A stretch of DNA of 64,000 nucleotides from Cyanobacteriota bacterium (GTDB lineage Bacteria; Cyanobacteriota; Cyanobacteriia; Thermostichales; Thermostichaceae). Each line of letters opens with the position of its first letter. The first letter of the stretch is position 1. A program made the position numbers and the translations under genes. This document shows positions 10,993 to 40,350 of the stretch, piece by piece. Location of the stretch: positions 64,001 to 128,000 of the forward strand of contig JANRIL010000040.1 of the NCBI GenBank assembly GCA_033764955.1. Reading direction: 5' to 3'. The notes under the pieces were generated by a model that searched no databases, was not told where the DNA came from, and saw only the letters and a list, made by a program, of their open reading frames with translations.

Positions 10993-11079
10993 CCGTCAAA
11001 TAGCATCTTTTGATTTTTATCTATGTAGCTTTCGCCGTAAGATGACGGAGAGTTAGCCGTGACAACGTAAACATCCACC

Positions 11080-12915: not shown

Positions 12916-12967
12916 GTCCTGTTTTGCTTGAAAAATTCCTCATTCCCCATGACAAGGAGATAATGCC

Positions 12968-14512
12968 ATGTTGAGTGGTTTACTTTGGATCCCAATTGTT
13001 GGAGCCACTTTGCTGGGATTCTGGCCGGGATCCCTGACTTTTCAGCAAACTCGTCGCTTAGGGTTAGTATTTGCAACTGGATTGACTGTCTGGACAGTAT
13101 TCCTCTTTGGTCAATTTGATTTGACGCAGGGGGGATTGCAAATGCGTGAGTTTATGCCCTGGATCCCTATGTTGGGTATGAACTATGAATTGGGTGTGGA
13201 TGGTTTATCGCTGCCATTGTTAGCCGTCAACAGTGGCTTGACCTGGATTGCCATCTATGGAACGGGAGAAAAGCTAATTCGACCTCGTTTGTTCTATTCC
13301 CTTCTTTTATTAGTCAATGGAGCTGTTGCCGGAGCTTTTCTTGCCCAAAATGCCTTGCTTTTCTTCCTGTTTTATGAGATCGAGTTGGTTCCTTTTTATC
13401 TGCTCATTTCGATTTGGGGAGGTCCACGACGGGGGTATGCAGCCATCAAGTTTCTCCTCTACACTGCTGTCTCCGGTATTTTAATGTTAGCCGGATTCTT
13501 AGGGCTGTTCTGGTTAGCAGATTTACCCAGTTTTGATTATCAAACTTTGCAATCTCAGGTGCTGCCTCTGGGATCCCAAATGGTTTTACTGTTAACTCTC
13601 TTGGTTGCTTTTGGCATTAAGATTCCTCTGGTTCCTTTTCATACTTGGTTGCCCGACGCCTATACGGAAGCCTCTGCTCCAGTAGCCATGATTTTGGGGG
13701 GGGTCTTAGCCAAATTAGGAACCTATGGATTGGTGCGATTTTGCTTGGGCTTCTTTCCGGATGCCTGGTCAGCACTGGCTCCCAATCTTTCTATTTGGGC
13801 AGTGGTTTGTGTCTTGGGGGGAGCATTCGCTGCTATTGCTCAAAAAGATATCAAACGGATGGTTGCCTACAGTTCTGTGGGTCACATGGGCTATGTGTTG
13901 TTGGGTTGTGCAGCCGCTACTCCGCTATCTATCGTGGGGGCAATTGCTCAGATGGTTAGTCATGGTTTTGTCCTAGCTTTGCTATTTCACTTGGTAGGGG
14001 TGATTGAAGAAAAAGTGGGCACGCGGGAGCTGGATGTTTTGAACGGTCTCCTCAACCCAATTCGGGGGCTACCCATGATTAGTGGTTTACTGATTTTGGG
14101 GGGAATGGCCAGTGCTGGGATCCCTGGATTGGTGGCCTTTGTCGCAGAATTTCTAGTTTTTCAGGGCAGCTACTCCATATTCCCGTTGCAAACCATTTTG
14201 TGTGTGGTTGGCACTGGTTTAACGGCAGTTTATTTTGTGATTTTGTTGAATCGAACTTGCTTTGGAAAACTGGATAATAAAACTGCTTATTACCCACAGG
14301 TGATGGGGTGGGAGCAAACGCCTGCTATTCTCCTGACCTTAGTTATTTTTATCTTAGGTGTTCAACCCAATTGGTTGGTGAAGTGGAGTGAGCCTTTTTC
14401 TTATCAATTGAGCACTCATACTCCTCAATTAGTCAGCCATTGGATCCCACCTGTTATGGGTAAAAAGTTAGAAAATACTCCCATCATGATCGCTGAGGAT
14501 CCATTACTTTGA
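12968..14512 (+). CDS. ndhD3: NDH-1 subunit D3
   Basis: NuoM-like; IKIPLVPFHTWLPDAY, LNPIRGLP and LNRTCFGKLDN. Confidence 0.92.
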   Translation: MLSGLLWIPIVGATLLGFWPGSLTFQQTRRLGLVFATGLTVWTVFLFGQFDLTQGGLQMREFMPWIPMLGMNYELGVDGLSLPLLAVNSGLTWIAIYGTGEKLIRPRLFYSLLLLVNGAVAGAFLAQNALLFFLFYEIELVPFYLLISIWGGPRRGYAAIKFLLYTAVSGILMLAGFLGLFWLADLPSFDYQTLQSQVLPLGSQMVLLLTLLVAFGIKIPLVPFHTWLPDAYTEASAPVAMILGGVLAKLGTYGLVRFCLGFFPDAWSALAPNLSIWAVVCVLGGAFAAIAQKDIKRMVAYSSVGHMGYVLLGCAAATPLSIVGAIAQMVSHGFVLALLFHLVGVIEEKVGTRELDVLNGLLNPIRGLPMISGLLILGGMASAGIPGLVAFVAEFLVFQGSYSIFPLQTILCVVGTGLTAVYFVILLNRTCFGKLDNKTAYYPQVMGWEQTPAILLTLVIFILGVQPNWLVKWSEPFSYQLSTHTPQLVSHWIPPVMGKKLENTPIMIAEDPLL

Positions 14513-14576
14513 TAGCAAGACGGATAAAGTCCTCCTAAATTGTTTCCTCAACTAATGACTGGTAAGGATAGAACTC

Positions 14577-15893
14577 ATGGTACAAACAATCGCTAAACCC
14601 ACTCAAAAACTCCCTCCCTCCCGACATCCTTTTGCTGAAGTGGTTCACCGCCTTGAGGCGGGTGGGGCAATGCTGCCGGATACTCCCGAAAATTTAATGC
14701 AAATTATTGGGCTTTATAAAGCCTATGCTGTGCCAATGGACTTTTATTGGCGGGATCTCCTCTATATCGCTGAGCGAGTTTTTCTGGATCCGTTACCATT
14801 TTTTAAGTTCTTCTTACCCAAAGAGTATATTGAACTGCATAACCATTATGCGGGAGATGATGCGGATCTGCGGATTTGGCGAGGGCCAGCTACCGCTCAC
14901 CCAGAATTGATCGAGTTTATGGAGAAGGGTGAATTAAACCGCAAGCTTCCCAAGATAGTTCATCATCTTTGGCATGACCGCATCAATATGGAGTTTGCAG
15001 AAGAATGTATGCGGGCTATGCTTTGGCATCGCGATATGGGTGGGCTTTTTGACCCTTATTTAGATAGTGACGAATACAAGCAAAATGCAGATCGAGCTAT
15101 TCGGGCATACTTTCGATATAATCCGCTCATGTTAGGACTTTATCGACTATTCCCTGACTTATTTTTAGAGCAATGTCGGCAAATGTCTTATTATGCCAAC
15201 TTGGGTTTGTTCTGGGAAATCATGGCTCCTGTCTTTTTTGAGATGTCTGATCTCTACGATGAAGGCAAGATTGCAAGTGTGCCGGAAGCTATGAATTTTT
15301 TGGTGAATGGGATTTTTGCAATTGCAGGACGACCTATTTATCATCATGTTTATATTCGGGGAGAATGCTATGAAATTATCCCGAAATCAAAAGGATTCAC
15401 ATGGCTTTACGAAGCTGCTTTTCCCTATGTAGAAGCCGTCTTTTACCGTACCTCCCCCTTCCGTGGCACCAAATCCTATAATGCTCAAGCAAATCAAGTT
15501 CCGGCGGATCAAAATGATTTTCACTACGGCATTCTTTATGCTGACAAGTTTCCTGTAGCGACTGCCGGGATCCCTCCCACACTGCTGCATCAAGATATGT
15601 ATCACTTCTTACCCAAGTATTTAGTGGATTACTATAGCCAGCATTGCCGAGGAAAGGATGATATGTTGATCCAGTTGGGAGTCAGCTTTCAACGCTCGAT
15701 GTATTGTGTTACCTCTGCCGTAATTCAAGCAGGTCGAGCTGCCTTTTTGTATCCTCTAGATGATCCTAACCCTGATCATTTGCGAGCAAATCGAGCTTAT
15801 TTTGAAGGCCAGCTTAATCGGTTTTGTCGCTCGGAATATAATATTCGTGATGCTGCCCGTCTGAGTTATATTCAAAATCAGGACTACCGATAA
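14577..15893 (+). CDS. cupA: CO2 hydration protein CupA/ChpY
   Basis: 438 aa; RLEAGGAMLPDTPENLMQIIG.YKAYAVPMDFYWRDL, HLWHDRINMEFAE and PFRGTKSYNAQA. Confidence 0.95.
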   Translation: MVQTIAKPTQKLPPSRHPFAEVVHRLEAGGAMLPDTPENLMQIIGLYKAYAVPMDFYWRDLLYIAERVFLDPLPFFKFFLPKEYIELHNHYAGDDADLRIWRGPATAHPELIEFMEKGELNRKLPKIVHHLWHDRINMEFAEECMRAMLWHRDMGGLFDPYLDSDEYKQNADRAIRAYFRYNPLMLGLYRLFPDLFLEQCRQMSYYANLGLFWEIMAPVFFEMSDLYDEGKIASVPEAMNFLVNGIFAIAGRPIYHHVYIRGECYEIIPKSKGFTWLYEAAFPYVEAVFYRTSPFRGTKSYNAQANQVPADQNDFHYGILYADKFPVATAGIPPTLLHQDMYHFLPKYLVDYYSQHCRGKDDMLIQLGVSFQRSMYCVTSAVIQAGRAAFLYPLDDPNPDHLRANRAYFEGQLNRFCRSEYNIRDAARLSYIQNQDYR

Positions 15894-28327: not shown

Positions 28328-29248
28328 ATGTCTACTTTAATGGCCAGCCATTTGCATAAAACCTATCGCTCTGGTCGGCAGCGCATCACCGCTGTTAATG
28401 ATGTATCACTGACCCTCAAATCCGGTGAAATTTTGGCCTTTCTGGGTGCCAATGGAGCAGGCAAAACTACCACGGTCAAGATGATTGCCGGACTGATTCG
28501 ACCGGATCGGGGACAGGTGCGGATAGAAGGTAGGGATCCCTATCAAGACACCTCTGTTTTGGGATGGTTAGGAGCAGTTTTAGAAGGAAACCGCAATCTT
28601 TATTGGCGGTTGACTCCAATACAAAATCTAGAATATTTTGGTGTCTTGAGGGGGCTAAGCCAGAGAGTTTCTCGTCAACGGGCTGAGCAATTACTCGATC
28701 AATTTCAGCTAGCCCATAAACGACAAACCCCTGTGGAAAAGTTATCGCGGGGGATGCAACAAAAGGTTGCCATTGCGGTGGCATTGATTCATCATCCCCC
28801 TCTGTTGCTGCTTGATGAACCCACATTGGGATTGGATGTGGAATCAACCCAGCAGATCAAATCTCGTATCCGCGAAATTGCTAACGCCGGACAGTCCATT
28901 TTGCTAACCACCCATCAGCTTGATATGGTGGAGACCCTGGCGGATCGGGTTTCGATTATTCATCGGGGAGAGATTATTGTAGAATCAACTCCCAAACAAC
29001 TCATTCAACAGTTTTCTAGTGCTACCTATCGCATTGAATTGGCAGAACCTTTAGATACGGAACGGATGATCAAGCTGCAATCCTCACAAGTCACAATTAT
29101 TGACACACAAACCATTTCCTTTGCTCACACCCCTGAGAAGCTGTACCAAACCCTAGATATTCTCCGTCCTTTGCCTCTGATTCTTGTCAAAAAAGAGGAG
29201 GCCGACTTAACCCAAGTATTTTTGAAATTGGTGCGGGATCATGATTGA
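28328..29248 (+). CDS. ABC transporter ATP-binding protein (exporter type)
   Basis: GANGAGKTT Walker A, LSRGMQQK signature and LLLLDEPT Walker B. Confidence 0.95.
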   Translation: MSTLMASHLHKTYRSGRQRITAVNDVSLTLKSGEILAFLGANGAGKTTTVKMIAGLIRPDRGQVRIEGRDPYQDTSVLGWLGAVLEGNRNLYWRLTPIQNLEYFGVLRGLSQRVSRQRAEQLLDQFQLAHKRQTPVEKLSRGMQQKVAIAVALIHHPPLLLLDEPTLGLDVESTQQIKSRIREIANAGQSILLTTHQLDMVETLADRVSIIHRGEIIVESTPKQLIQQFSSATYRIELAEPLDTERMIKLQSSQVTIIDTQTISFAHTPEKLYQTLDILRPLPLILVKKEEADLTQVFLKLVRDHD

Positions 29249-30014
29249 GTTGTTGAAAGCGGAGCTAAAGCGCACATGGATTCAGTCTACTCGTTATCCC
29301 TTGGAGGCCTTGGGACGCATTTTTATTACTACCTGTTTTTTTTATGCCCTGTTTCTGGGATCCAAATACATCGCAGAACCTCCGGCCTCTTTTGGCAATC
29401 GTTTGGATAGTATCGTGATTGGCTATATTTTATGGACACTGGTTATTTTTATTGTCAATGATATTGCCATCACCCTACAAATTGAGGTGCAAACCGGAAC
29501 TCTCCAACAGGTTTTACTCTCCCCTTATGAGCCAGTTAAAATTTTTTTGGCTCGCGCCTTAGCCAGTTTACTGTTAAGACTGACAACCATTATCACCATT
29601 TTGCTAATCATCTTGGTTTTAACAGGTAGCCAACTGGCTTTTCCAATTTCGCTCCTGTTGCCGCTTCTGAGTGTCATTTTAGGAGCCTATGGTCTGGCTT
29701 TTATGATGGGATCCCTAGCGGTTTTATTGAAGCGTATTCAACAACTGTTGGTGATTCTGCAATTTGGGTTGCTGTTTCTTTTGGCAACCCCCATCGAAGA
29801 CTGGCAAGGGATCCCTGCCCTGCTGGGGCTATGGCTGCCGATGACTGCCGGGGCGGGTTTACTCAGACAGGTAATGGCGCAGGGTATGGCGCTAGACGGA
29901 TTCCGTGCGGGGTTGGCCTTATTAGTGGGATTACTCTATTTCATTGTGGGGTTGGCTTGCTTTCGTTGGGCGGTCAATCATGGCAAGCAACAGGGAAATC
30001 TGGGAACCTACTAG
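29241..30014 (+). CDS. ABC-2 type permease
   Basis: 6 TM helices; EVQTGTLQQVLLSP; overlaps the ATPase stop. Confidence 0.9.
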   Translation: MIELLKAELKRTWIQSTRYPLEALGRIFITTCFFYALFLGSKYIAEPPASFGNRLDSIVIGYILWTLVIFIVNDIAITLQIEVQTGTLQQVLLSPYEPVKIFLARALASLLLRLTTIITILLIILVLTGSQLAFPISLLLPLLSVILGAYGLAFMMGSLAVLLKRIQQLLVILQFGLLFLLATPIEDWQGIPALLGLWLPMTAGAGLLRQVMAQGMALDGFRAGLALLVGLLYFIVGLACFRWAVNHGKQQGNLGTY

Positions 30015-30318
30015 GTTGTGTTGATCTTTCGCTTTCACTGCTCAATTTCGTCATATTTTTGGGCATCCGTTGGTCGTTTTTTTCATCCCTAGAGCTACTC
30101 TCTAAGTCTTGCCATAGTCTAAAATCCCGCTTCATCATCTCGACTTACCCCTGCTCCATCCGCCAGGGATCCCCAAGTTCCTTGAAGTGTGTTCAAGAAT
30201 ACCTCAGCTTTTGTGCTCTATTAAGAATTACCACAGTTTTTTTTCAAAGAGTACCTGAGTCTGATACCTTGTGGGCAGTTCAGAAAAGTCTCTGATTTCT
30301 TCAACTCATTTTCTAAAG

Positions 30319-32889
30319 ATGGGATCCCTTTTCCGCAGAATGACTCACTATTTGTTGTTGGGATCCCTATTGTTGGGTTTGCTTGCCTGTGGCTCAGACA
30401 CCCCCAGTACCCTAACCACTCCAGGGGATCCCGATACCACTCAGGTTTGGTTTGAAGGGGATCCCACGACTTTTGACTCGACCGATGCCGCCATTGCCTT
30501 TGGGATTGCGGTGCTCAAAGAGCCTCCCAACTCAATAGCCAATCCTGTCAATGACCAAATTCGGGTGGAGGTGGAAAGTCGGTTTGGTATTTCTCTGAGT
30601 GAGCAACAACTCAATAGCAGCAATGGCTTTGTCTTGGCTGCTGCCGATTTGGATGGCAATGGTCAGGTTAATTCTCAAGATGCGGCGGTGGCCTTTGCGG
30701 TGGCGGTGCTGCGAGAACCTCCCAACAATGTTGCTTGCCCATCTAAGGTGCAGGTGCAAACGGAGGTGGAGAGGCGATTTGGATTCTCGGTCACCTTACT
30801 CAAACCGATTCCTTGTTCGGGATCCGCATTCCCCCCAGGGATCCCTAGTCCTGATGTGACACCCAGTGCAGAAGCAAGCGAACCACCCACCGGAACCATT
30901 CAAATTATTGGTGTGGAGGACAAAGATGGGATCCCGCTCACCATAGGCGAGACTCTTAGGTTAGAAGCGGTGGCTATCGATGCTGAGGGCAGGGATATTT
31001 CTCAGTGGATTGAGTGGCGCAATCCTCAAAATCAGGTGATGGGGAGAGGAGCCGTTCTGGATTATCCAGCCAATAGTGTGGTCATGGAAACTCTGACGGC
31101 GCAAATCGGGGAAGACCAAAGTAAAGCTCAGACTGGGATGGCTTCAGCCAGAGTCAGTTTTACGGTGTCTACACCAGAGGCGGTGATTGCTCCCCATGTC
31201 AAAGTCTTGCCAGAACAAGCGCAAGAACAGATTTTGCTGCTCGATTTTGAGAAGGGGTTGCTGCAACTAGCCGACATCTCTGCTCTGCCGACACTGCGAG
31301 TTGGGGATGTCGTGTTGGGGGCTGGAGTCGAAATTCCTCCCCATCGGATTAGCCAAATCGAGGCTCAAGATGGCACCCTCTCCTTGACCATGCAGCCTGC
31401 TTATCCGCAAGAGGTGATTAGGCAAGGAAAGATTTCCCAATGGCAGCAGGTGAGGCTTGATAGTCAAGGCAAGCTGGAAGCACGCTCTCCCCTCACCGCC
31501 AAAGCAGGCTGTGCCGGAGCTATCACCAAAAGCCTCGACCTGCCGATCTATTCCCAAGCAGCGGTGGGAGTGGGTGTGCAAGTCAACAATTCAGTCAATG
31601 GGTTTCAGGCGGTAGAGAGTCAACTGACCACCAGTTTAGAGGTGAGAGGAATTGCTGAGGTTAGTCTATGTCCTGTATTTGAGCCACCCACGATTGAGTT
31701 TAACGAAGAGGGGAATCTCTTTTCGGGTATCCGCCGTTTTGCGATGGGGGCAGGGGTAGAAGATATTACGGCACAGGCTTATCTACAAATGCAAGGGTTG
31801 TTGGAATGGGGATTTATCCGGCGGATCCCGACTCCGGCGATTAGTTTGGTGACGACACCCACGTTTTATTTGGGGCAGGTGGGGCCAGTGTCGGTGTGGG
31901 TGAGTTTTGAGGCATTGGGACATTTTCCGGTAGAAGCGGGGGTGAGCTTATCGGCAACGGGAGTGAAATTGGGGGTGGGGTATGGGGGAGGGAGTTATCT
32001 GCAACGGATCACTTATCAGGATGAGGGAGAGAGTGGGAAATGGGAAAACACTTCGGAATCGAGTTTGGGAACATTCAGTCCCATTTTGGAAGGAGATATT
32101 GACTTAGATGGCTATATACAAGTGGGGTTTAACCCAGAGATTGAGACCAGTTTATGGGGATCCCCGCCTGGGTTATCGACAGCGAGATTAAAGCTCTTTG
32201 TTTTGCCGAAGATAGGGCTGAACTTTTATGTGAGGGGGGAGGTTGAGCTACTGCCAGATGAGATTGGGGTGGAGATAGAGCAACCTCAATCGGGCACTAC
32301 ATTGGCAGGGAATGAAAGTATTGCCCTGAGGGCAAGAGCAAGTGGAGATCCAAAGCTGACTTTGTTGGCGGGAGTAGATTTAACCCTCCGCGATGGTTCT
32401 GTAGAAGATGGGTGTTCTTCTTCCTATGGAGCACAAGAAAACCAAGATAATGAGTACACTCTTCTATTAGAAGTGCAACCTTGTTATCTACAACCAAATG
32501 GTCGCCACTGGTTTAATAAAATTAGTGGTAGTAGCCCCTCTAAAGATAAAAATACTGTAATGATGCCCGACATAGATGTTTATAATGATGTGTCAGAAAT
32601 AAATGAGGGAAAGACACCTAAAGTTCAAGGGATTTTTACACTGTCTAATGGGAGAAAATATTCATCTGAAACAACATCAGCAGGATATCGACTTGTACCT
32701 GAAGAAGGCCCAGGTTTCTTTCGGATGGATAGAGGTGCGTATACAGCACTTACCATCATCAAGAAATATCATGGTATTACAGAGGCTGCATTAAATGAAA
32801 TAAACCTAAATCCAGGCATAACAGATAGTCAAAGGGATGAAGCAATTACAGTTTATGAACTTGGAGTGAGCTTAGGAGGCAAGCCCTAG
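30319..32889 (+). CDS. Large predicted lipoprotein with variable C-terminal (candidate toxin) tip
   Basis: LLLGLLAC lipobox; duplicated dockerin-like repeat; Ig-like domain; beta-rich core; abrupt switch to AT-rich sequence after about 32408; followed by a coupled AT-rich ORF. Confidence 0.75.
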   Translation: MGSLFRRMTHYLLLGSLLLGLLACGSDTPSTLTTPGDPDTTQVWFEGDPTTFDSTDAAIAFGIAVLKEPPNSIANPVNDQIRVEVESRFGISLSEQQLNSSNGFVLAAADLDGNGQVNSQDAAVAFAVAVLREPPNNVACPSKVQVQTEVERRFGFSVTLLKPIPCSGSAFPPGIPSPDVTPSAEASEPPTGTIQIIGVEDKDGIPLTIGETLRLEAVAIDAEGRDISQWIEWRNPQNQVMGRGAVLDYPANSVVMETLTAQIGEDQSKAQTGMASARVSFTVSTPEAVIAPHVKVLPEQAQEQILLLDFEKGLLQLADISALPTLRVGDVVLGAGVEIPPHRISQIEAQDGTLSLTMQPAYPQEVIRQGKISQWQQVRLDSQGKLEARSPLTAKAGCAGAITKSLDLPIYSQAAVGVGVQVNNSVNGFQAVESQLTTSLEVRGIAEVSLCPVFEPPTIEFNEEGNLFSGIRRFAMGAGVEDITAQAYLQMQGLLEWGFIRRIPTPAISLVTTPTFYLGQVGPVSVWVSFEALGHFPVEAGVSLSATGVKLGVGYGGGSYLQRITYQDEGESGKWENTSESSLGTFSPILEGDIDLDGYIQVGFNPEIETSLWGSPPGLSTARLKLFVLPKIGLNFYVRGEVELLPDEIGVEIEQPQSGTTLAGNESIALRARASGDPKLTLLAGVDLTLRDGSVEDGCSSSYGAQENQDNEYTLLLEVQPCYLQPNGRHWFNKISGSSPSKDKNTVMMPDIDVYNDVSEINEGKTPKVQGIFTLSNGRKYSSETTSAGYRLVPEEGPGFFRMDRGAYTALTIIKKYHGITEAALNEINLNPGITDSQRDEAITVYELGVSLGGKP
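32082..32408 (+). repeat. Direct repeat copy 1 (pre-tip homology arm)
   Basis: CATTTTGGAAGGAGATATT...CGATGGTTCTGTAGA matches 33723-34049 with about 16 mismatches by manual count. Confidence 0.95.
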
Positions 32890-33650
32890 TGGAGATTTTT
32901 ATTGATAAATATCCATCACTAATTGAGATTGAGCAAGCTTTAGCTGAGCTACTTAAAGTTGATATCTCTCAGGTTGCAGCTACTTTGAGCTTCTCGGAAT
33001 ATTTAAAAACGAATAAGATTATTCCTCCTGTTGTTTGTGAAATAAAAATGGTTTCTGGGAATTTTTCTTGTTGTGTTTACCTACATCTACCTATTGAAAA
33101 AAATAAGGAGAAAGTCCTTGAGGTTATAGGTGGACTGTGTGAAATTCTAAATTGCAGGGCAATGATTTCTTATCGCGTTGGAAATTCTGGAGTTAAGATG
33201 TATTTATTTCTATCAAGGAGGGAATACTATAGAATTGCAATTATGGATGATGAAGAGTATTCAATTTGGCAACAAGTTTTAGAAATCTTAATTGAAACCC
33301 CTCCGATAGCACTAGATTTAAAGAATATTTTATCTGAATCTATGTGCTTGCCAAAAGATAATTTTTTTCATGAAGATGATTGGCATAAAACTCTTTTGTC
33401 AAGAAAAGTTATTTACTCATATTATAATTCTCATCAAAAATCTTCTGGCAATCTTTGTCTTTATATTCCTACAAATCATAGGTTTCTGAATCCATATAAT
33501 GAGATGGAAGTTGCAAAGAATATATCGAGAAAAATACAATGCAGAATTGCTATTCAGGATCTTTCAATAAATGAGAATGAAAGATTATGCTTTGATCCGT
33601 TAGTTAATAGTATAACTGTTATTCCTTTGTCTGAAATCACTGGTCAATGA
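32889..33650 (+). CDS. Candidate immunity protein for tip 1
   Basis: GTG start overlaps the carrier TAG; very AT-rich; two internal repeats. Confidence 0.65.
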   Translation: MEIFIDKYPSLIEIEQALAELLKVDISQVAATLSFSEYLKTNKIIPPVVCEIKMVSGNFSCCVYLHLPIEKNKEKVLEVIGGLCEILNCRAMISYRVGNSGVKMYLFLSRREYYRIAIMDDEEYSIWQQVLEILIETPPIALDLKNILSESMCLPKDNFFHEDDWHKTLLSRKVIYSYYNSHQKSSGNLCLYIPTNHRFLNPYNEMEVAKNISRKIQCRIAIQDLSINENERLCFDPLVNSITVIPLSEITGQ

Positions 33651-33722
33651 GATTTTTATATTGACAAATGAGAGGGTATTTTATTGTTTCTCGTGTGAGC
33701 AAAATGACTGATGAACTAGCCT

Positions 33723-34049
33723 CATTTTGGAAGGAGATATTGACTTAGATGGCTATATACAAGTGGGATTTAACCCAGAGATTGAGACCAGTTTATGGGG
33801 ATCCCCGCCTGGGTTATCGACAGCGAGATTAAAGCTCTTTGTTTTGCCGAAGATAGGGCTGAACTTTTATGTGAGGGGGGAGGTTGAGCTGCTGCCGGAT
33901 GAGATTGGGGTGGAGATAGAGCAGCCTCAATCGGGCAGCACATTGGCAGGGAATGAAAGTATTGTTCTCAGAGCAAGAGCGAGTGGAGATCCAAAGCTGG
34001 CTCTATTGGCGGGAGTAGATCTAACCCTCCGCGATGGTTCTGTAGAGGA
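33723..34049 (+). repeat. Direct repeat copy 2 (pre-tip homology arm)
   Basis: See 32082-32408; offset 1641 bp. Confidence 0.95.
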
Positions 34050-34611
34050 ATGTTCAGATTCTCAGCCTAGTTCCACATCTGCTTTGACAACTAAAAGAAC
34101 ATTACTTAATACAGCTACAGGAGGAGTTAGCTATAAGGGAATATGTGAATGTAAGCAGGTTTATGTTAGAGATGGAGTTGATTTAGCTACAGTTCCAGAA
34201 CCTCCTAGTCTTCCACCGTTACCAAGACATACAACATGTAATACTCATGGACAAAATACTAGAGATACAGGAGGAGTCAACTCTCGAAAAAAATGCTACG
34301 CAGGTAGCCCATTTGAGTCACATCATATTATTCAAGAAGCTGCGGTTAAAGGTATTAATGGCTACCCTACAAGTAAATCGACCAAAGCCTATACAGTTCT
34401 GTTATCTCCATCAGATCATCAAAAAGCAAATGCAGCTCAACCTCGCCCGCGACCAGCGGGAACCTATAGTAGTGAAAGAGACATTGCAATAAATGCATTG
34501 ACAGCAGCAAACCTTCAGGGTGATGAGGTTACAAAACAAATTGAGTGTGCTGACACTTTCTTTTATAGTCTTGGATTTCAGGATGATACAATTACCAATG
34601 CCGTAAATTAA
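33727..34611 (+). CDS. Orphan toxin cassette: carrier fragment plus SHH/HNH-type nuclease tip
   Basis: First ~107 aa nearly identical to the carrier pre-tip region; no signal peptide; tip has ESHHIIQEAAV...DHQKANAAQ...GTYSSER motif pattern. Confidence 0.7.
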   Translation: MEGDIDLDGYIQVGFNPEIETSLWGSPPGLSTARLKLFVLPKIGLNFYVRGEVELLPDEIGVEIEQPQSGSTLAGNESIVLRARASGDPKLALLAGVDLTLRDGSVEECSDSQPSSTSALTTKRTLLNTATGGVSYKGICECKQVYVRDGVDLATVPEPPSLPPLPRHTTCNTHGQNTRDTGGVNSRKKCYAGSPFESHHIIQEAAVKGINGYPTSKSTKAYTVLLSPSDHQKANAAQPRPRPAGTYSSERDIAINALTAANLQGDEVTKQIECADTFFYSLGFQDDTITNAVN

Positions 34612-34630
34612 CTTGTGGAGAACTCTTAAA

Positions 34631-35125
34631 ATGACACAGGATCAAGATCAAAGCTGCAAAACGATAGAACTGTCTAGCCTCGTTCCCATACTCAAAGAAT
34701 TAGCTCATGATATCGTCAATAGAAACTTCGAGAAACTGCTTTCAAAGAATCAAATAGAACCAGAAAACTTAGACTATATGACTCAAGCTCTAGATAATTA
34801 TGCTGGGACTGCTGTAGAACCTCCTGACACAGAAATATATCGAGCAATTGGACAGATGGCTCAATACACACTAAGTAGTTTCATGGCAAATGAGATACCT
34901 AACTATGAGGAAGACTATGAGTCTTACACTAAGCAAGATATTGATAAGATGGTTGTTACTATAGATTTACCCAGTTTACCCAGTCTTTATATTGAATTAT
35001 TGCTTGAGCCTAGCCCAACAGAAAAAAAAGAAAAGCATATTACGACTGCTATATGTGTTTGCATAGATGTTTTCCTATCAAATGATAGATTCTCAGTAAA
35101 AGCTAACTACATGTATATTTCTTGA
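34631..35125 (+). CDS. Candidate immunity protein for tip 2 (copy A)
   Basis: 19 bp after the orphan toxin stop; GGAG upstream; acidic; AT-rich. Confidence 0.65.
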   Translation: MTQDQDQSCKTIELSSLVPILKELAHDIVNRNFEKLLSKNQIEPENLDYMTQALDNYAGTAVEPPDTEIYRAIGQMAQYTLSSFMANEIPNYEEDYESYTKQDIDKMVVTIDLPSLPSLYIELLLEPSPTEKKEKHITTAICVCIDVFLSNDRFSVKANYMYIS

Positions 35126-35215
35126 TGGAATGCATTGACACTTTCTTTTATAGTCTTGGATTTCAGGATGATACAATCACCAATGCCATAAAATAACTTC
35201 TGGGGGACTCTTAAA

Positions 35216-35713
35216 ATGACACAGGATGAACATCAAAACCGCAAAATGATAGAATTGTCTAGCCTCGTTCCCATACTCAAAGAATTAGCTCATGATATCA
35301 TCAATAGAAATTTTGAAAAACTAATTTCGCAAGATCAAATAAGACAAGAGAGAGTAGACTATATGATTCAATCTCTAGATGATTATGCTGGAACTGCTGT
35401 AGATCCTCCTGACACAGAAATATATCGAGCAATTGGACAGATGGCTCAAGGCACACTAGATAATTTCATGGTAAACGAGATACCTAAATATGAGGAAGAC
35501 TATGAGGCTTATACCAAGCAAAATGTTGACAATATGGTTGTTACTACAGATTTACCCAGCCTTTATAGAGAACTATATATCGAATTATTTCTTGAGCCTA
35601 ACCTAACAGAGAAAAAAGAAAAGCATATTACGACCTCTTTACGTGTTTGCATAGATGTTTTCCTGTCAAATGATGGATTCTCAGTAAAAGCTACCAACAT
35701 GTATATTTCTTGA
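35216..35713 (+). CDS. Candidate immunity protein for tip 2 (copy B, diverged paralog)
   Basis: Colinear paralog of 34631-35125 (IELSSLVPILKELAHDI, YAGTAV.PPDTEIYRAIGQMAQ, MYIS*). Confidence 0.65.
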   Translation: MTQDEHQNRKMIELSSLVPILKELAHDIINRNFEKLISQDQIRQERVDYMIQSLDDYAGTAVDPPDTEIYRAIGQMAQGTLDNFMVNEIPKYEEDYEAYTKQNVDNMVVTTDLPSLYRELYIELFLEPNLTEKKEKHITTSLRVCIDVFLSNDGFSVKATNMYIS

Positions 35714-35813
35714 TGGCATTATGAGTCTAATACTCTTGTCTGCTGGGTAAAGAGCTTTGCTTAATAAGCTTCTGATTCGTAATTATCATTTACTATAATC
35801 TTCCGAAAATAAC

Positions 35814-38489
35814 ATGAAAAAGACTTTTCTTTTCTTTGATGAATCTCTAATAACTACCTTTTCCCCTTTTCAAAGACTTATGCAAAATCTAGGACTCCTC
35901 TGTGGAATTTTGCTGCTATTTTTGATCACCAGTTGTGGCTCTAGCACCTCCTCTACGATTGCTCCTGCTGCTGCCTCCGATTCTTCCCCTCTCCAACTGT
36001 CCCTAGAAGTTCCTCTCCCTGGTTTTGCTTCCCTAGAGGTTCCCCTTATCCAAGCAAGTGAGATCTTGTCTGTGGATATCCCCATCTATAGCGCCCACTA
36101 CCCCATCATCTGGAGCAGTAGTGCTAATCCAGACCAAGTGATCGCCCAATCTCGCTCTCAACTAACCGTCTCTCCGGATCCCTGTGTCATCCCCAGCGCA
36201 GGCAACCACACCCTGACGGCGACTGTCTTCAATCCCCTCGACTTTGGCCTCTATTTCCCCCTTGCCACTACGGCTATTCCCATTACCCTTGACCCTGGTT
36301 GTATCAGCCTCTCCATTGAGTCGGTTGCTCTGCCCGCTACGACTAACGATGGCACTCCCGAATCTCTCAAAGTTTGTGTGGCGCTAGAAGATGCTGATGG
36401 CTCCCTCCTCCTCGATGAAACCGGCAATCGTCCGGCAGTCTCACTCTTGTTTGAGCCACAATCAGGTACGGTTGACCCCGCAACAGGCAGCACAGATAAC
36501 CAAGGATGCTTCCGTACCACTGCCACCCTCACTCAAAACCTGGGGACGTTCCAAGTCAAGATCACGGCTGAATACCAACCAGAGCCAAATAATTCCTATA
36601 CGCTGACCGCCAGCGATAGTGCCCAGATGAGGGATCCCTGTGATGTCAGTGACCCCGCCGAGAAACCCTTTTGCACTTGTGAAGCAGGTTCCTGTCCTTC
36701 TCCCTCTCCGGATCCCTCTCCGGATCCATCACCTAATCCCTCTCCTAATCCATCCCCATCGCCACCGCCTCCATCCCCACGACCTAGTCCACCTCCTTGT
36801 TCTAACTGCACTCCAGGCGGTAGTTGGGGTGAGCCTCATGTCTATACCTTTGACCGCCTTGCCTACGATTTCCAATCGATTGGGGAGTTTGTGCTGGCTG
36901 CTTCCCTCTACTCCGATTGGCAAATCCAAGGGCGTCAAACCTATTGGCTTCCCAAAACCCGTCAAGTGGCTATCAACCAAGCCATGGCCACTCGTCTCGG
37001 CTCCACTCGCCTGATGATTGATGCTTTTGCGGACATCCCCCTCTGGCTAGACGGTCAACCCTCTCCCCTCCAGGATGGACAACTGCTCACCTGGGAAGAT
37101 GGTTCTGCTCTCTACTATGACCTTGATGAGCGAAAGGGCAGTGGCTGGCACACCTACCGACTGATTTGGCCGGATGGATCCCAACTGCAAGCTCAAGTGC
37201 GGGGGATCAATGGCATTGATCAAGGTGAAGCCCGTTTCTTAGATCTGACATTACACTTACCTGCTCAGTTAGCAGGCTCAGTACGAGGATTATTGGGCAA
37301 TTTCAATGGGGATCCCCAGGATGATGTGCAAACTCGTCAGGGAGAAGTGTTGAGTGGGGTGCTCTCCTTTGAGCAGATCTATCAAAGTTATGCCAACTCT
37401 TGGCGGATTTCCCAGGCGGAATCCTTGTTTGACTATTCACCTGGGGAAAGCACAGCCACCTTGACTGACCTCAATTTCCCCCAGCAATATGTCAGTGCCA
37501 GTACCCTGCCAGAGGAGGACTATCAGGTGGCTCAAACCGCTTGTCAAAGCGCTGGAGTGCCAGAACTATTGCTGTCAGATTGCATTCTGGATGTAGCACT
37601 GACTGGGGATCCCAAACTGGCTACGGTGGCAGCAGAAACGGCAGCAAGCCTTGGCGCAGAAAATTTACCCACGGCTAGCTTGGGGGTGATCACTCCCACC
37701 ACACCAACTCCTGGCTACCTGTTGTGGGGCATGACTGCTGCTGGAGCCGATATCATCGCCATCACCGACACCGCAGAATTAGTGCGGATTAACCCCCAAG
37801 GAGAGATTGGGTCGATAGCGTCTGGGCTGGTCAATAATTTCACCTTTGTGGCTGGGCTAGAGGAAGATTTCATTGTGGCCTCGCCCAGTGGTTATCCGCC
37901 GCTGCGGGTGACGCCCACGGGTGAGGTGACTCCCTTCATTAGCTTTGCCGTGAGCGAGTCAGGGCCTTGGATTGAATTGGTGCGGGGATTAGCTTCCCAA
38001 GGGTCATCGGTGTGGATGACGCTCAACTCTCAATATGTGGGGGGATCCCTCCAGAGCCGCCAGAGTCCTTATGTTTTACCTGTGGGATCCCATCTGGTGA
38101 GGGTGAATGAGCAGGCAGAGGCAACGACACTATGGTCTGACTTGGAGGATCCCTATGCTTTGGGGGCGGTGACGGTGATGGGAGAGGAGGTGGTTGTGGT
38201 GAAGGGCAATCAGCTCCTCAAAATCTCTCCGACAGGACAGGCAAGAGAATGGGTCAGTTTGGATTTTGTGGCGGCGGTGCAGGGGTTGGTGGCTGGGTCG
38301 GATAGGCTGTGGTTACTTGGTCAGCCCAGCTATGGATCCCCTCCTTCCCTCTGGCGGATTAGCCCTGATGGGGAGGTGAGTCTTTTGCTGGAAGGGTTAC
38401 CTCAGATCGGTGGCATGACCCTCCTCAAGACTGACTTGATGTTGGCAGACCTCACCCACCGCCAACTGCTGCGGATCTTTCAACCCTAA
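35814..38489 (+). CDS. Predicted lipoprotein with Ig-like domains, Pro-rich linker, von Willebrand factor D (VWD) domain and C-terminal beta-propeller-like repeats
   Basis: LLFLITSC lipobox-like signal; (PSP)n linker; SWGEPH..TFD..AYDFQSIGEFVL and RGLLGNFNGDPQDD VWD motifs; Cys pair AC....DCILDV. Confidence 0.8.
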   Translation: MKKTFLFFDESLITTFSPFQRLMQNLGLLCGILLLFLITSCGSSTSSTIAPAAASDSSPLQLSLEVPLPGFASLEVPLIQASEILSVDIPIYSAHYPIIWSSSANPDQVIAQSRSQLTVSPDPCVIPSAGNHTLTATVFNPLDFGLYFPLATTAIPITLDPGCISLSIESVALPATTNDGTPESLKVCVALEDADGSLLLDETGNRPAVSLLFEPQSGTVDPATGSTDNQGCFRTTATLTQNLGTFQVKITAEYQPEPNNSYTLTASDSAQMRDPCDVSDPAEKPFCTCEAGSCPSPSPDPSPDPSPNPSPNPSPSPPPPSPRPSPPPCSNCTPGGSWGEPHVYTFDRLAYDFQSIGEFVLAASLYSDWQIQGRQTYWLPKTRQVAINQAMATRLGSTRLMIDAFADIPLWLDGQPSPLQDGQLLTWEDGSALYYDLDERKGSGWHTYRLIWPDGSQLQAQVRGINGIDQGEARFLDLTLHLPAQLAGSVRGLLGNFNGDPQDDVQTRQGEVLSGVLSFEQIYQSYANSWRISQAESLFDYSPGESTATLTDLNFPQQYVSASTLPEEDYQVAQTACQSAGVPELLLSDCILDVALTGDPKLATVAAETAASLGAENLPTASLGVITPTTPTPGYLLWGMTAAGADIIAITDTAELVRINPQGEIGSIASGLVNNFTFVAGLEEDFIVASPSGYPPLRVTPTGEVTPFISFAVSESGPWIELVRGLASQGSSVWMTLNSQYVGGSLQSRQSPYVLPVGSHLVRVNEQAEATTLWSDLEDPYALGAVTVMGEEVVVVKGNQLLKISPTGQAREWVSLDFVAAVQGLVAGSDRLWLLGQPSYGSPPSLWRISPDGEVSLLLEGLPQIGGMTLLKTDLMLADLTHRQLLRIFQP

Positions 38490-38708
38490 AGATGAGCACT
38501 GCGGCTAGCCCCTTGCCTATGGAGCGGGATCCCACACCCACTCTTGAAAAACTGGTATCTCATCATCCCAGGGATCCCTTGCCTCAACATCTGCTCTCTC
38601 AGGCTCTCTGCTTGCTGGGCGCTCACTTCTGGCTCAAATATTAAACATCAACAGAACCTAGAACCCGACGAGGCATAATAATGAGGCTCCCCTCTGCTCG
38701 GATGGAAT

Positions 38709-39275: not shown

Positions 39276-40235
39276 TTAACGAGCTAAGTTAAGCAACTCT
39301 TTGGGAGAAGCCAGCAAATCAATCGCTACAAAGAAGATTTTCCCTTCGGGATTGAGCAAAAATCTCCAGGCAATATTCATCCCTACATTGGCTCCAAACC
39401 AGGGGGTTTGCACCTTGCCCGTGACTTTAACTTGCGTAAATCCATCCTCAATCAGTTCCGAAACACCCCGCTCAGGCAGTAATTTTAGATTTTGGCATTC
39501 TTCTAGCAAATAACGGAAGATCTCCTCCCGTCCCACAATCGGCTTTTGAAAAGGAGGCTGCAATGCCCCATCCGCTGCAAAAAGCTCCAGAACCGCACTA
39601 AAATCGTTGGCATTCATGTTGTCTATATAATTGAGGACGGTCTGGTTAAAGAGTCCTTCAATCGTGGCTTTTGTGCGTTGGGAAAGTTCTTTGGGAGGAG
39701 AGAGGGGTTCGGCAATACGGGTGTAGTTGCCAAAGGCGGAAGAGTCGTATCCCATATCCACCACAGCGCTACGCAAAATCGTGATCTGTTGCCCTTTATC
39801 TGCTTCTTGAATGGTTTTCAGAACAGCCGCTGCATTAGCCGACAGTTGATAATCACTGGGAATCGGCGCGACTAACCCCTTTTCCATCCATTGCCCTAAC
39901 TGATACCAAAAGCCCAACTTGACATTAGGAGTAAAAATCCCGTAGGTGCGCCCAATCGGAGTATCAATCCGTTTGACCAAATCAAACATCACCTTGGTTT
40001 GTTCGGAGAAAGGCATCTGCTTAATTTGGTTGAGGATCCCTTCCGCCAAGACCATGCTGGCAGCTCCGGGGGCAGCAATGGTGATGGTTTTCCCCATTTC
40101 TACATAAGCAAACCAGATCAAAGCCAGTTGATCTTCGACACTAAGCTGGGCAAATCGAGCAATCGTAGCTGGAACCACATCTGCCGTCAACGTGCTAGGG
40201 AAAATTCCTCGTGCAGAATCAACAGTAAAGCGCAT
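39276..40235 (-). CDS. ocp: Orange carotenoid protein (full NTD plus NTF2-like CTD)
   Basis: FTVDSARGIFP..L.ADVVPATIARF, KLGFWYQL, GALQPPFQKPIVG, VQTPWFG and IFFVAIDLLASPKELL. Confidence 0.97.
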   Translation of the reverse strand: MRFTVDSARGIFPSTLTADVVPATIARFAQLSVEDQLALIWFAYVEMGKTITIAAPGAASMVLAEGILNQIKQMPFSEQTKVMFDLVKRIDTPIGRTYGIFTPNVKLGFWYQLGQWMEKGLVAPIPSDYQLSANAAAVLKTIQEADKGQQITILRSAVVDMGYDSSAFGNYTRIAEPLSPPKELSQRTKATIEGLFNQTVLNYIDNMNANDFSAVLELFAADGALQPPFQKPIVGREEIFRYLLEECQNLKLLPERGVSELIEDGFTQVKVTGKVQTPWFGANVGMNIAWRFLLNPEGKIFFVAIDLLASPKELLNLAR

Positions 40236-40350
40236 AGGGTGTCCTACTTTGAAATGATTTTTGGCATCCGTCAAGGTCAAGAAACCCTGGGAATGTTGGG
40301 GACGCTGACCCAGCAATTTTTAGCCTTGACTTTACTTAGCTTATCATAAT

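What the first reader, a model, noticed from the sequence alone, without database searches (positions are those of the whole stretch)
30319..38489. Candidate new polymorphic toxin system built on a dockerin/Ig lipoprotein carrier, with a silent exchangeable tip cassette
Seen: carrier lipoprotein with tip 1, coupled AT-rich ORF, orphan ORF (copy of the carrier's pre-tip region plus a different tip), two paralogous small ORFs, then a VWD lipoprotein. Established: this toxin-immunity-orphan toxin-immunity layout, with shared homology upstream of the tips, defines polymorphic toxin loci such as Rhs, CdiA and MafB. Inference: I cannot see RHS/YD repeats, haemagglutinin repeats, LXG/WXG, PAAR/VgrG or a HINT domain. 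The carrier is instead a Sec lipoprotein, so this may be an undescribed surface- or vesicle-delivered contact-antagonism system in mat-forming cyanobacteria.
Basis: partly seen in the sequence, partly recalled or inferred. Interest (0 to 1): 0.88.

Follow-up and report, generated by a model that had tools for sequence, protein, structure and literature searches.

The report
Cyanobacterial lipoprotein polymorphic toxin locus
A cyanobacterial gene cluster encodes a membrane-anchored protein whose swappable tail is a toxin, together with matching antidote genes, a spare toxin cassette and a conserved partner protein; this bacterial-warfare design is known from other bacteria, but the carrier and partner used here match no family in the libraries or papers searched.

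Summary
Window 30319-38489 encodes a lipobox carrier with tip 1, an overlapping AT-rich ORF (B), an orphan (333 nt of pre-tip at about 95% identity plus a different tip), two paralogous small ORFs (D and E, 77% identical) and a VWD lipoprotein.

Relatives confirm the polymorphic-toxin reading.
- Homologous carriers in five other genomes of the same family share the core. Most share a junction, (A/G)G(V/I)D(L/F)TLRDG(S/R)VE, and diverge after it.
- Their tips include NucA/NucB, AHH, a toxin-deaminase, DUF6972 and DUF6310.
- The next genes are ComJ, Imm11 and SUKH-1, the expected immunity families.
- Tip class and downstream-ORF class co-vary. The same tip classes occur on full-length carriers and as orphans, in arrays of up to three.
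- A VWD lipoprotein closes the array in 17 of 30 loci. In 12 of the others the contig ends too soon to tell.

The carrier core matches no Pfam or NCBIfam family and no solved fold above noise. It was found only in the window's own family and order.

In kind this resembles SitA, MafB/MafA and other Sec-dependent polymorphic toxins. It is a new variant, not a new category. The delivery route, toxicity and silence of the orphan are untested.

The parts
30154..31233 (.). 5' block shared with the second locus of the same genome (G000:C44): 92.0% nt identity over 1080 nt. It covers 165 nt upstream of the start and the first ~305 codons.
   Evidence: blastn
30319..32889 (+). Carrier lipoprotein gene with tip 1. 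ORF from GTG 30271; likely start ATG 30319; a collection record starts at 30340.
30319..30390 (+). Type II signal peptide with lipobox LLAC (Cys40 in ORF numbering from 30271).
   Evidence: sequence read directly; no signal-peptide predictor was available
30448..30825 (+). Duplicated dockerin-like N-terminal module (FDSTDAAIAFGIAVL.EPPN / DLDGNGQVNSQDAAVAFAVAVLREPPN). It is also carried by four unrelated lipoproteins of this genome and is replaced by CBM_2 pairs in relatives.
   Evidence: repeat D4; Dockerin_1 E 0.053, below cut-off
31138..32079 (+). Carrier core: a small beta domain (..VKVLP..GDV..GA..) followed by a long antiparallel beta-meander. No known family.
   Evidence: alignment A3; AF2 models, pLDDT 73 and 81
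32080..32412 (+). Pre-tip homology region, copy 1 (Ig-like; weak Big_7). This is the recombination substrate shared with the orphan.
32380..32406 (+). Junction motif LTLRDGSVE (residues 704-712).
32407..32886 (+). Tip 1, 160 aa. It has a Cys715...Cys738 polar loop followed by a domain of unknown family. A homolog (44-45% identity) occurs as an orphan in G004.
32889..33650 (+). B: candidate immunity protein for tip 1. 253 aa, no signal peptide, GC 0.31, start overlaps the carrier stop. A homolog follows the tip-1 homolog in G004.
33727..34611 (+). Orphan cassette. It has pre-tip copy 2 (33721-34053), junction LTLRDGSVE (34021-34047), a Cys loop and tip 2 with an ESHH..N..H signature (SHH at 34318-34326). 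It has no signal peptide.
34631..35125 (+). D: candidate immunity protein for tip 2 (ORF listed from TTG 34613; ATG at 34631). Weak DUF7668 match.
35128..35196 (+). Remnant of the last 22 codons of a tip-2-type gene (ECIDTFFYSLGFQDDTITNAIK*), left by a 585-nt tandem duplication.
35216..35713 (+). E: duplicate of D (77% aa identity).
35814..38489 (+). VWD lipoprotein, the conserved last gene of the system. It has lipobox LITSC (35922-35936), Ig-like N-terminal region, a Pro/Ser linker, a VWD domain starting at GEPH (36828-36839) and a C-terminal region that matches no family.
38215..38581 (.). 3' block shared with the second locus (91.6% nt identity over 367 nt).

Best explanation
The locus (about 30154-38581) is a Sec-dependent, lipoprotein-borne polymorphic toxin-immunity system.

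Carrier. It is exported and lipidated at Cys40. From N to C it has:
- an exchangeable anchoring module (dockerin-like here, CBM_2 pairs in relatives);
- an Ig-like domain;
- an all-beta core of about 310 aa;
- an Ig-like pre-tip domain;
- the junction ..AGVDLTLRDGSVE;
- a polar loop of about 20-35 aa bounded by two cysteines;
- a toxin domain of about 110-160 aa.

Immunity and spare cassette.
- The gene that starts on the carrier's stop codon (B) encodes the cytoplasmic immunity protein for tip 1.
- The orphan is a spare cassette with no signal peptide: the last 111 pre-tip codons plus an HNH/EndoVII-like (SHH-type) tip, with its own immunity gene D and a duplicate, E.
- Homologous recombination across the 333-nt pre-tip repeat would put tip 2 on the carrier and delete tip 1 and B.

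Partner. The VWD lipoprotein is a fixed partner of the carrier. It probably acts in surface presentation or adhesion, or as the receptor.

Shown here: the anatomy; the polymorphism after a fixed junction; the co-variation of tips with downstream genes; orphan arrays; known toxin/immunity families on this carrier; and the carrier-VWD linkage.

Inferred, not shown: toxicity and neutralisation; delivery to neighbouring cells from the cell surface; nicking of the Cys loop with release on reduction, by analogy with the disulfide loops of AB toxins as I recall them; and actual tip switching in this strain.
For: 1. A second locus in the same genome (G000:C44) has a carrier 60% identical over residues 1-706. 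Its tip is Pfam DNase_NucA_NucB (6.9e-7, 30.2 bits against 23.8). The next ORF matches ComJ (3.6e-5, 23.9 bits against 25). Zhang et al. 2012 list this pair as Tox-ComI/Imm-ComJ (passages).

2. Other carriers of the family carry known pairs:
- AHH (3.9e-5, above cut-off) followed by three Imm11-like ORFs, one above cut-off;
- Toxin-deaminase (29.9 against 29.6) followed by two SUKH-1 ORFs and then the VWD gene;
- DUF6972 and DUF6310 tips, each about 3e-25.

3. 21 of 21 ORFs carrying the junction motif diverge right after it.

4. All 8 pairs of similar downstream ORFs lie behind similar tips. Of 10 tip-similar pairs in which both have a downstream ORF, 8 have similar downstream ORFs.

5. Tip 1 and B recur together as an orphan pair in G004: tip 45% identical, B homolog 25% identical at 2e-17.

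6. A tip-2 homolog (33% identity, 9e-12) ends a full-length carrier in G002. It is followed by a DUF7668 ORF (27.8 against 27). D has a weak DUF7668 match (E 0.031) and BLASTP E 0.006 to that ORF.

7. G010 has arrays of three orphans on each of three contigs. The same tip classes occur on full-length carriers and as orphans.

8. A Cys lies 2-5 residues after ..VE in 21 of 21 tips, and a second Cys at +23 to +39 in 19 of 21. The carrier's six non-lipid Cys fall in three close pairs, which fits an extracytoplasmic protein.

9. B, D, E and the ComJ-like ORF show no signal peptide (sequences).

10. A VWD homolog lies downstream in 17 of 30 loci. Core and VWD are fused in single proteins: P0032 and 1684- and 1957-aa ORFs in G018 and G014, and by coordinates also 1757- and 1690-aa ORFs in G022 and G017.

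11. GC drops from 0.53 in the carrier body to 0.38-0.40 in the tips and 0.31-0.36 in the small ORFs, as expected for imported cassettes.
Against: - No toxicity, binding or expression data exist.
- Tip 1 and B belong to no known family. The best hit is BA_2335-like at E 0.0055, below cut-off. A search among longer proteins found only the window's own protein.
- Tip 2 reaches only 16.5 bits for Tox-SHH against a cut-off of 22.7.
- D and E match no immunity family above cut-off.
- 15 of 26 relatives' tips had no Pfam hit at E<=0.1, and only 3 of 26 passed a curated cut-off.
- The relatives are few, closely related and mostly fragmented metagenome-assembled genomes, so the counts are not independent.
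- One locus (L047) has 3.4 kb downstream of a weak pre-tip match without a VWD match.
- The second locus's VWD gene looks degraded, so the partner may be dispensable or shared.
- Nothing shows where the lipoprotein ends up, or how a nuclease would cross a target cell's envelope.
Confidence: 0.75

Rival explanations
1. It is the same polymorphic toxin, but it is delivered as in Myxococcus SitA. The lipoprotein would sit in the outer membrane and pass to kin by membrane fusion or vesicle transfer, not by display on the surface. The VWD lipoprotein would play the part of the recognition receptor (TraA-like) or the helper (SitB-like).
For: The lipobox carrier, nuclease tips, cytoplasmic immunity and an accessory gene in the operon parallel sitBAI (abstract, passages). 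The VWD protein's N-terminal region seems to vary with the carrier core subtype, as a recognition partner would.
Against: SitA orthologs were reported only in species with traAB and only in Myxococcales (passage). TraAB was not looked for here. The N-terminal modules in this family (CBM_2, dockerin-like) suggest binding to an extracellular polymer or partner, not free diffusion in a membrane.
Confidence: 0.15
2. It is a released, bacteriocin-like toxin. The carrier would be cleaved from its lipid anchor or at the junction loop and diffuse away. The core and pre-tip would serve as receptor-binding and translocation domains, as in colicins and S-pyocins.
For: The Cys-bounded polar loop between carrier and toxin would suit proteolytic nicking. 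The nuclease tips and cytoplasmic immunity proteins resemble nuclease bacteriocins (my knowledge).
Against: A lipobox is conserved in 10 of the 13 carriers whose N-termini were read. No lysis or release gene was seen in the loci. Anchoring modules are conserved.
Confidence: 0.12
3. It is not a weapon. These would be surface nucleases and other enzymes for scavenging extracellular DNA, remodelling the matrix or supporting competence. The small ORFs would be inhibitors that protect the producer before export, as with Bacillus NucA/Nin.
For: NucA/NucB+ComJ is originally a competence nuclease and its inhibitor (passage). CBM_2 and dockerin-like modules are typical of matrix-bound enzymes (my knowledge).
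Against: This does not explain several features: the orphan arrays, the fixed junction with unrelated tips (deaminase, AHH, NTase-like, ParB-like), the SUKH and Imm11 immunity families, or the tandem immunity duplicates.
Confidence: 0.05
4. It is a variable adhesin or antigenic-variation locus. The tips would be binding domains and the small ORFs chaperones.
For: The locus has Ig-like domains, a VWD partner and a silent-cassette layout.
Against: Three tip families and three downstream-ORF families pass Pfam cut-offs for toxins and immunity proteins. The small ORFs lack signal peptides.
Confidence: 0.03

Closest known systems
SitA/SitB/SitI lipoprotein polymorphic toxins of Myxococcus (Vassallo et al. 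2017, 2021; abstract and passages read)
   Same: A type II signal/lipobox carrier with a family-specific N-terminal 'escort' region and polymorphic C-terminal nucleases. The immunity gene lies immediately downstream and an accessory gene sits in the operon. The family is restricted to one lineage.
   Different: No sequence family is shared, as far as Pfam and NCBIfam can show (no SitA sequence was compared directly). SitA depends on TraAB outer membrane exchange. SitB lies upstream, has a type I signal and is predicted to be a beta-barrel. Here the accessory gene lies downstream and is a VWD lipoprotein, and orphan arrays with a fixed junction motif are prominent.
MafB/MafA/MafI of Neisseria, and the 'T2SS/Sec-dependent' class of Zhang et al. 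2012 (MAFB-N, MicroscillaN, and APD1/APD2 with lipobox; passages)
   Same: Sec export, a lineage-specific conserved N-terminal region and polymorphic C-termini, with a non-polymorphic lipoprotein (MafA) encoded alongside. Orphan tip+immunity cassettes are also shared (recalled for MafB).
   Different: MafB itself is not a lipoprotein, and MafA lies upstream. Pfam returned only Big_7, BA_2335-like and Dockerin_1 for the carrier at E<=1, so no MAFB-N-type domain matched. The core, the junction and the VWD partner differ.
CdiA-CT and Rhs-CT orphan arrays (VENN and PxxxxDPxGL junctions; recalled)
   Same: A conserved junction motif sits directly before the variable toxin. Promoterless orphan tip-immunity modules retain a stretch of pre-tip homology. 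The tip families are shared with other systems (AHH, deaminase, NucA/B, SUKH, Imm11).
   Different: There are no TpsA/haemagglutinin repeats, CdiB, RHS/YD repeats, PAAR or VgrG. The carrier is 720-1070 aa, not several thousand. The junction is ..TLRDG(S/R)VE followed by a Cys-bounded loop.
Bacterial vWD-domain proteins (Lipocone preprint, passage: a myxobacterial toxin architecture described there as the first bacterial example of vWD)
   Same: A VWD domain associated with a secreted toxin system. An adhesion role is proposed there.
   Different: Here the VWD domain is on a separate lipoprotein that closes the toxin operon, or is fused to the carrier core without a toxin (P0032 and the genus g2 proteins).

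Membership tests
Polymorphic toxin system (sensu Zhang et al. 2012) | Homologous carriers share the N-terminal and central regions but have unrelated C-terminal toxin domains | tested here: met
   21 of 21 motif-bearing ORFs diverge after ..RDG(S/R)VE, giving about 12-13 tip classes. Pfam finds NucA_NucB, AHH, Toxin-deaminase, DUF6972 and DUF6310.
Polymorphic toxin system (sensu Zhang et al. 2012) | An immunity gene lies immediately downstream and is specific to the tip | tested here: met
   Co-variation is seen in 8 of 8 pairs of similar downstream ORFs. ComJ, Imm11 and SUKH-1 lie behind NucA/B, AHH and deaminase tips. Specific neutralisation itself was not testable.
Polymorphic toxin system (sensu Zhang et al. 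2012) | Standalone (orphan) toxin cassettes share pre-tip homology, allowing recombination | tested here: met
   The window orphan shares 333 nt at about 95% identity. G010 has arrays of three orphans on each of three contigs. The same tip classes occur on full-length carriers and as orphans.
Polymorphic toxin system (sensu Zhang et al. 2012) | The toxin is delivered to other cells and kills those lacking immunity | not testable with these tools
   Needs competition assays.
SitA (Myxococcus OME toxins) | Lipobox carrier with a polymorphic C-terminal nuclease and downstream immunity gene | tested here: met
SitA (Myxococcus OME toxins) | Sequence homology of the escort domain to one of the SitA families; presence of traAB | not tested
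The carrier matches no Pfam or NCBIfam family. SitA homologs were reported only in Myxococcales (passage).
MafB | MAFB-N (DUF1020) N-terminal domain | tested here: not met
   No such Pfam hit at E<=1. That the model is in the library copy is recalled, not checked.
CdiA / two-partner secretion | TpsA secretion domain, haemagglutinin repeats, pre-toxin VENN, CdiB neighbour | tested here: not met
   None at E<=1 in Pfam. The neighbours are an ABC transporter and the VWD gene.
Rhs / T6SS / T7SS toxins | RHS/YD repeats, PAAR, VgrG, LXG/WXG, HINT | tested here: not met
   None at E<=1 in Pfam or NCBIfam.
Tox-SHH (HNH/EndoVII) for tip 2 | Match to the family model; [SG]HH motif and a downstream His | tested here: inconclusive
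   16.5 bits against a cut-off of 22.7, E 0.014. ESHH..NG..SDH is present in the sequence. No fold model was made.
DNase NucA/NucB + ComJ (second locus, G000:C44) | Matches to both family models in adjacent genes | tested here: met
   NucA_NucB scores 30.2 against 23.8. ComJ scores 23.9 against 25, just below. The same pair occurs in G010:C209.
VWD domain (partner lipoprotein) | Match to PF00094; G[DE]PH at the start of the domain | tested here: met
   7.9e-9. Four homologs match at 2.1e-15 to 9.4e-4. G[DE]PH is present in the 5 homologs found by searching for it. Autoproteolysis at this motif was not testable.
Outer-membrane beta-barrel / (inverse) autotransporter for the carrier core | Closed transmembrane barrel fold | tested here: inconclusive
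   The best VIA Z-scores are 7.4-7.7 to autotransporter and TamA barrels, at rmsd 5-10 A, which is within the noise range stated by the tool. Atlas structural look-alikes include clusters from Actinomycetota and Bacillota, which argues against an outer-membrane barrel.

The most novel reading that the evidence does not exclude
The carrier and the VWD lipoprotein together form a previously undescribed two-lipoprotein delivery apparatus. The beta-meander core and its co-varying VWD partner would mediate recognition of neighbouring cyanobacterial cells. They would also mediate translocation of a toxin that is released by nicking and reduction of the Cys-bounded loop. This would be a contact-dependent route unrelated to T5SS/CDI, T6SS, T7SS or TraAB membrane exchange. 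The whole interior of the locus (core, tip, immunity gene, VWD N-terminal half) would be exchangeable between conserved flanks as a second tier of polymorphism.
Probability: 0.25. Interest if true: 0.85.

Novelty: new variant of a known kind. Interest (0 to 1): 0.62.

Why it matters
My searches found no paper describing a polymorphic toxin system of this design in cyanobacteria. The terms searched were polymorphic toxin + cyanobacteria + lipoprotein; contact-dependent + toxin + immunity + orphan + cyanobacteria; and polymorphic toxin + VWD.

This locus family offers several things.
- It gives a compact, testable candidate system of six genes in one cyanobacterial family.
- It provides a new pre-toxin junction motif and a profile (alignments A3, A4) for mining further toxins and immunity proteins. 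At least 15 of 26 tips here have no family.
- It links a bacterial VWD lipoprotein to toxin loci.
- Its Cys-bounded linker suggests a release step that biochemistry could test.
- It shows that a widespread, unnamed lipoprotein scaffold domain has been recruited to carry toxins. That domain also occurs in Bacteroidota-like and Actinobacteria-like lipoproteins.

Tried and rejected
- Complex prediction of tip 1 with B (alignments of 2 rows each): 'no answer', score 0.00. This is no evidence either way.
- The look-up of sequencing runs for 30319-38489: none was listed and no RNA holder was listed. Expression and the silence of the orphan could therefore not be examined, and read laying was not used.
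- PDB sequence search with the carrier and the orphan: nothing below E 0.09.
- Foldseek against PDB with both core models: no match at E<=0.001. BFVD: none.
- VIA-align wide search: best Z 7.7 and 7.4, with no Z>=8. I considered an inverse-autotransporter or outer-membrane-barrel reading of the beta-meander and dropped it as unsupported. The rmsd was high, and the Atlas look-alikes include clusters from monoderm phyla.
- The small N-terminal domain of the core resembles phage baseplate-hub and VgrG domains only at Z 5.2-7.1 (rmsd 2.4-4.3 A over 63-74 residues). This is a lead, not a finding.
- The Atlas lead to DUF8402/DUF8403 (TM 0.51-0.63) produced no match, and I did not check whether the Pfam copy at hand holds those models. 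No paper mentions them.
- Atlas search for B: no named family.
- Searches among longer proteins for tip 1 (only the window's own protein) and tip 2 (none).
Two metagenome-contig scans, with core and junction patterns, found no relatives.
- The upstream ABC transporter (28328-30014) was considered as part of the system and rejected. It is absent from the second locus.
- Earlier findings of the scan: none near, by sequence or by words.


Full report
**1. The observation**

- The carrier ORF runs 30271-32889. From ATG 30319 it reads MGSLFRRMTHYLLLGSLLLGLLAC, a type II signal peptide with a lipobox.
- B (32889-33650) starts with a GTG that overlaps the carrier's TAG.
- The orphan (33727-34611) shares a sharply bounded block with the carrier. 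32080-32399 against 33721-34040 matches at 304 of 320 positions on one ungapped diagonal. The block ends at the codons for ..LTLRDGSVE, after which the two sequences are unrelated.
- D and E are 77% identical. They arose by a 585-nt tandem duplication that also copied the last 22 codons of tip 2, now a remnant at 35128-35196.
- The last gene (35814-38489) is a lipoprotein (..LFLITSC) with a Pfam VWD domain (7.9e-9).
- GC falls from 0.527 in the carrier body to 0.382 (tip 1), 0.312 (B), 0.398 (tip 2) and 0.35 (D, E). It returns to 0.537 in the VWD gene.
- Pfam at E<=1 and NCBIfam find none of the classical delivery domains. 'Dockerin' and 'Ig' are only sub-threshold hints.

**2. A second locus in the same genome**

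A search of the window's own assembly found a second carrier on contig C44, 60% identical over residues 1-706 but with another C-terminus.
- That tip is DNase_NucA_NucB (30.2 bits, cut-off 23.8).
- The ORF that follows it matches ComJ, the inhibitor of that nuclease (23.9 bits, cut-off 25). A VWD-type lipoprotein gene comes next.
- Zhang et al. 2012 list Tox-ComI with Imm-ComJ among polymorphic toxin pairs (passages).
- The two loci share 92% nucleotide identity over 1080 nt at the 5' end (30154-31233) and 91.6% over 367 nt at the 3' end (38215-38581). The interior is diverged, with only the VWD-domain region aligning, at 73%.
- The whole interior therefore behaves as a replaceable block between conserved flanks.

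**3. Relatives**

- The core (residues 290-720) matched 13 of 61 related genomes including the window's own: 11 of 22 in the same family, 1 of 7 in the same order and 0 of 31 in other families of the class.
- A profile of 12 cores matched 12 of 23 genomes of the family.
- In an even sample of the phylum, no genome other than the window's own matched at E<=1e-10 (1 of 401).
- Against 1.84 billion representative proteins the profile found 149 at E<=0.001 and 38 at E<=1e-30.
- Near-complete cores with toxin-type ends occur in G003, G004, G010, G013 and G017.
- The only organism name attached to any relative is a record title for a Synechococcaceae cyanobacterium metagenome-assembled genome.

**4. 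Polymorphism, immunity genes and orphans**

- In 21 ORFs (2 in the window, 19 in relatives) the motif (A/G)G(V/I)D(L/F)TLRDG(S/R)VE is followed by unrelated sequence of 98-187 residues.
- Of 26 relatives' C-termini scanned, 11 had a Pfam hit at E<=0.1 and 15 had none. DUF6972, DUF6310 and AHH passed the curated cut-offs. NucA_NucB missed by 0.3 bits. EndoU, NTase (twice), HNH (twice) and ParB_N were weak.
- Further carriers of a second core subtype end in a Toxin-deaminase (29.9 against 29.6), followed by two SUKH-1 genes. One ends in a homolog of the window's tip 2 (33%, 9e-12), followed by a DUF7668 gene.
- An AHH-tipped carrier is followed by three Imm11-like genes.
- Downstream ORFs co-vary with tips. 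All 8 similar pairs of downstream ORFs lie behind similar tips, and 8 of 10 tip-similar pairs with both ORFs present have similar downstream ORFs.
- Tip 1 and B recur together, as an orphan pair, in G004.
- G010 carries three orphans in a row on each of three small contigs.
- Three tip classes are found both on full-length carriers and as orphans in other genomes. That is the footprint of cassette exchange.

**5. The junction loop**

- Every one of the 21 tips has a Cys 2-5 residues after ..VE, and 19 have a second Cys at +23 to +39. The stretch between them is polar and variable.
- The diverged second locus has the same arrangement.
- The carrier's other non-lipid cysteines also come in close pairs: 156/182 and 414/467.
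- I infer a disulfide-bounded linker loop. By analogy with AB toxins (my knowledge) it could be nicked, so that the tip is freed on reduction in a target cell. This is untested.

**6. The carrier body**

- The N-terminal module is duplicated, with a dockerin-like Ca-loop signature. It is shared with four other lipoproteins of this genome that carry beta-helix, glucose-dehydrogenase-like or other bodies.
- In relatives it is replaced by one or two CBM_2 domains. It therefore looks like an exchangeable anchoring module.
- AlphaFold models of the core (pLDDT 73 with 12 sequences, 81 with 45) are all-beta with strands of 30-45 residues.
- No solved structure matched above noise.
- Distant sequence relatives are lipoproteins with the same core directly after the lipobox. 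They then have Big_1 or PKD domains and non-toxin ends such as Fib_succ_major or Laminin_G_3.
- Atlas look-alikes include clusters from monoderm phyla.
- The core is thus best read as a widespread, unnamed lipoprotein scaffold, not as a membrane barrel.

**7. The VWD partner**

- A VWD homolog lies downstream of the last cassette in 17 of 30 loci examined. In 12 of the other 13 the contig ends within about 2 kb. One (L047) has 3.4 kb without a match.
- Within the family the same 11 genomes hold both genes; VWD matched 12 of 22, the extra one weakly. Part of this overlap is trivial. In G014 and G018 the core's first domain and the VWD region lie in one 1684- or 1957-aa protein with LRRs and no toxin. 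By coordinates, G017 and G022 have the same arrangement in ORFs of 1690 and 1757 aa.
- P0032 is a similar fusion. Such fusions argue for a functional link.
- G[DE]PH opens the VWD domain in the 5 homologs found by searching for the motif.
- The role of the VWD protein (helper, adhesin or receptor) is open.

**8. Comparison with known systems**

- The design is established: Sec or lipobox export, a lineage-specific conserved region, polymorphic nuclease tips, immunity downstream and an accessory (lipo)protein. Examples are the Sec-dependent class of Zhang et al. 2012 (MafB with MafA, APD1/APD2 with lipobox; passages) and the SitBAI toxins of Myxococcus (abstract and passages).
- New here are the carrier family, its junction motif and Cys loop, the VWD lipoprotein partner, and the two tiers of exchange.
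- My literature searches found no description of it. Subscription journals and supplements were not covered.

**9. Verdict**

This is a real, well-supported polymorphic toxin-immunity locus on a new, lineage-restricted lipoprotein carrier. Identity as a polymorphic toxin system: about 0.85. The specific delivery route is unknown.

Noticed in passing
G000 loci L004-L007 (C5:180830, C5:173013, C11:110550, C48:84549): Four other lipoproteins of the same genome share the carrier's duplicated dockerin-like N-terminal module (45-55% identity). Their bodies are unrelated: beta-helix repeats, a glucose/sorbosone-dehydrogenase-like propeller, and a short protein. This looks like a genome-wide sorting or anchoring tag for lipoproteins.
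   Followed up: partly
G000:C44 about 129755-131345 (L043 5851-7535, minus strand): The VWD gene of the second locus looks degraded. It has a 454-aa ORF ending within the VWD domain, an in-frame TAG, and then a 92-aa ORF in another frame that is 94% identical to the last 90 residues of the window's VWD protein.
   Followed up: partly
window 30154-31233 and 38215-38581 versus G000:C44: The two loci have about 92% identical flanks around a diverged interior. This suggests whole-interior replacement by recombination, a second level of polymorphism above tip switching.
   Followed up: partly
window 35128-35196: A 22-codon remnant of the 3' end of a tip-2-type toxin gene lies between D and E. It marks a 585-nt tandem duplication of 'toxin end + immunity gene'.
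   Followed up: yes
G014:C1:789731-795601 (L097) and G018:C61:819-5870 (L096); also protein P0032: Giant proteins of 1684 and 1957 aa (and P0032, 1602 aa) combine a dockerin-like N-terminus (read in P0032 only), the carrier core, a VWD domain and leucine-rich repeats. The C-terminal 600 aa scanned show LRR/VWD and no toxin family. ORFs of 1690 and 1757 aa in G017 and G022 match both the core and VWD queries but were not examined further. Function unknown.
   Followed up: partly
L045 (G010:C225) 3-1934 and 1918-3072: A carrier appears split into two overlapping ORFs (644 and 385 aa), the second ending in an AHH nuclease domain. This could be a frameshift, an assembly error or a true split.
   Followed up: no
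L042 (G003:C12) 4477-14598: Two complete systems lie in tandem: carrier, an ORF of about 300 aa, a VWD gene, a second carrier, an ORF of about 290 aa (near-threshold DUF7738 match, 24.5 bits against a 24.6 cut-off) and a VWD-like fragment.
   Followed up: no
window 39276-40316 (-): Orange carotenoid protein gene (Carot_N 5.3e-65 plus NTF2). It supports a cyanobacterial origin for the window.
   Followed up: yes
window 28328-30014 (+): An ABC-type ATPase and a permease lie directly upstream of the carrier. They are not present at the second locus, so they are probably unrelated to the system.
   Followed up: partly
core model residues 19-92 (window about 31192-31413): The small beta domain at the start of the core resembles hub domains of phage baseplates, tail tips and VgrG. 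The Z-scores are 5.2-7.1 at rmsd 2.4-4.3 A in 16 of the 50 rows. This is below the tool's noise mark but recurrent.
   Followed up: no
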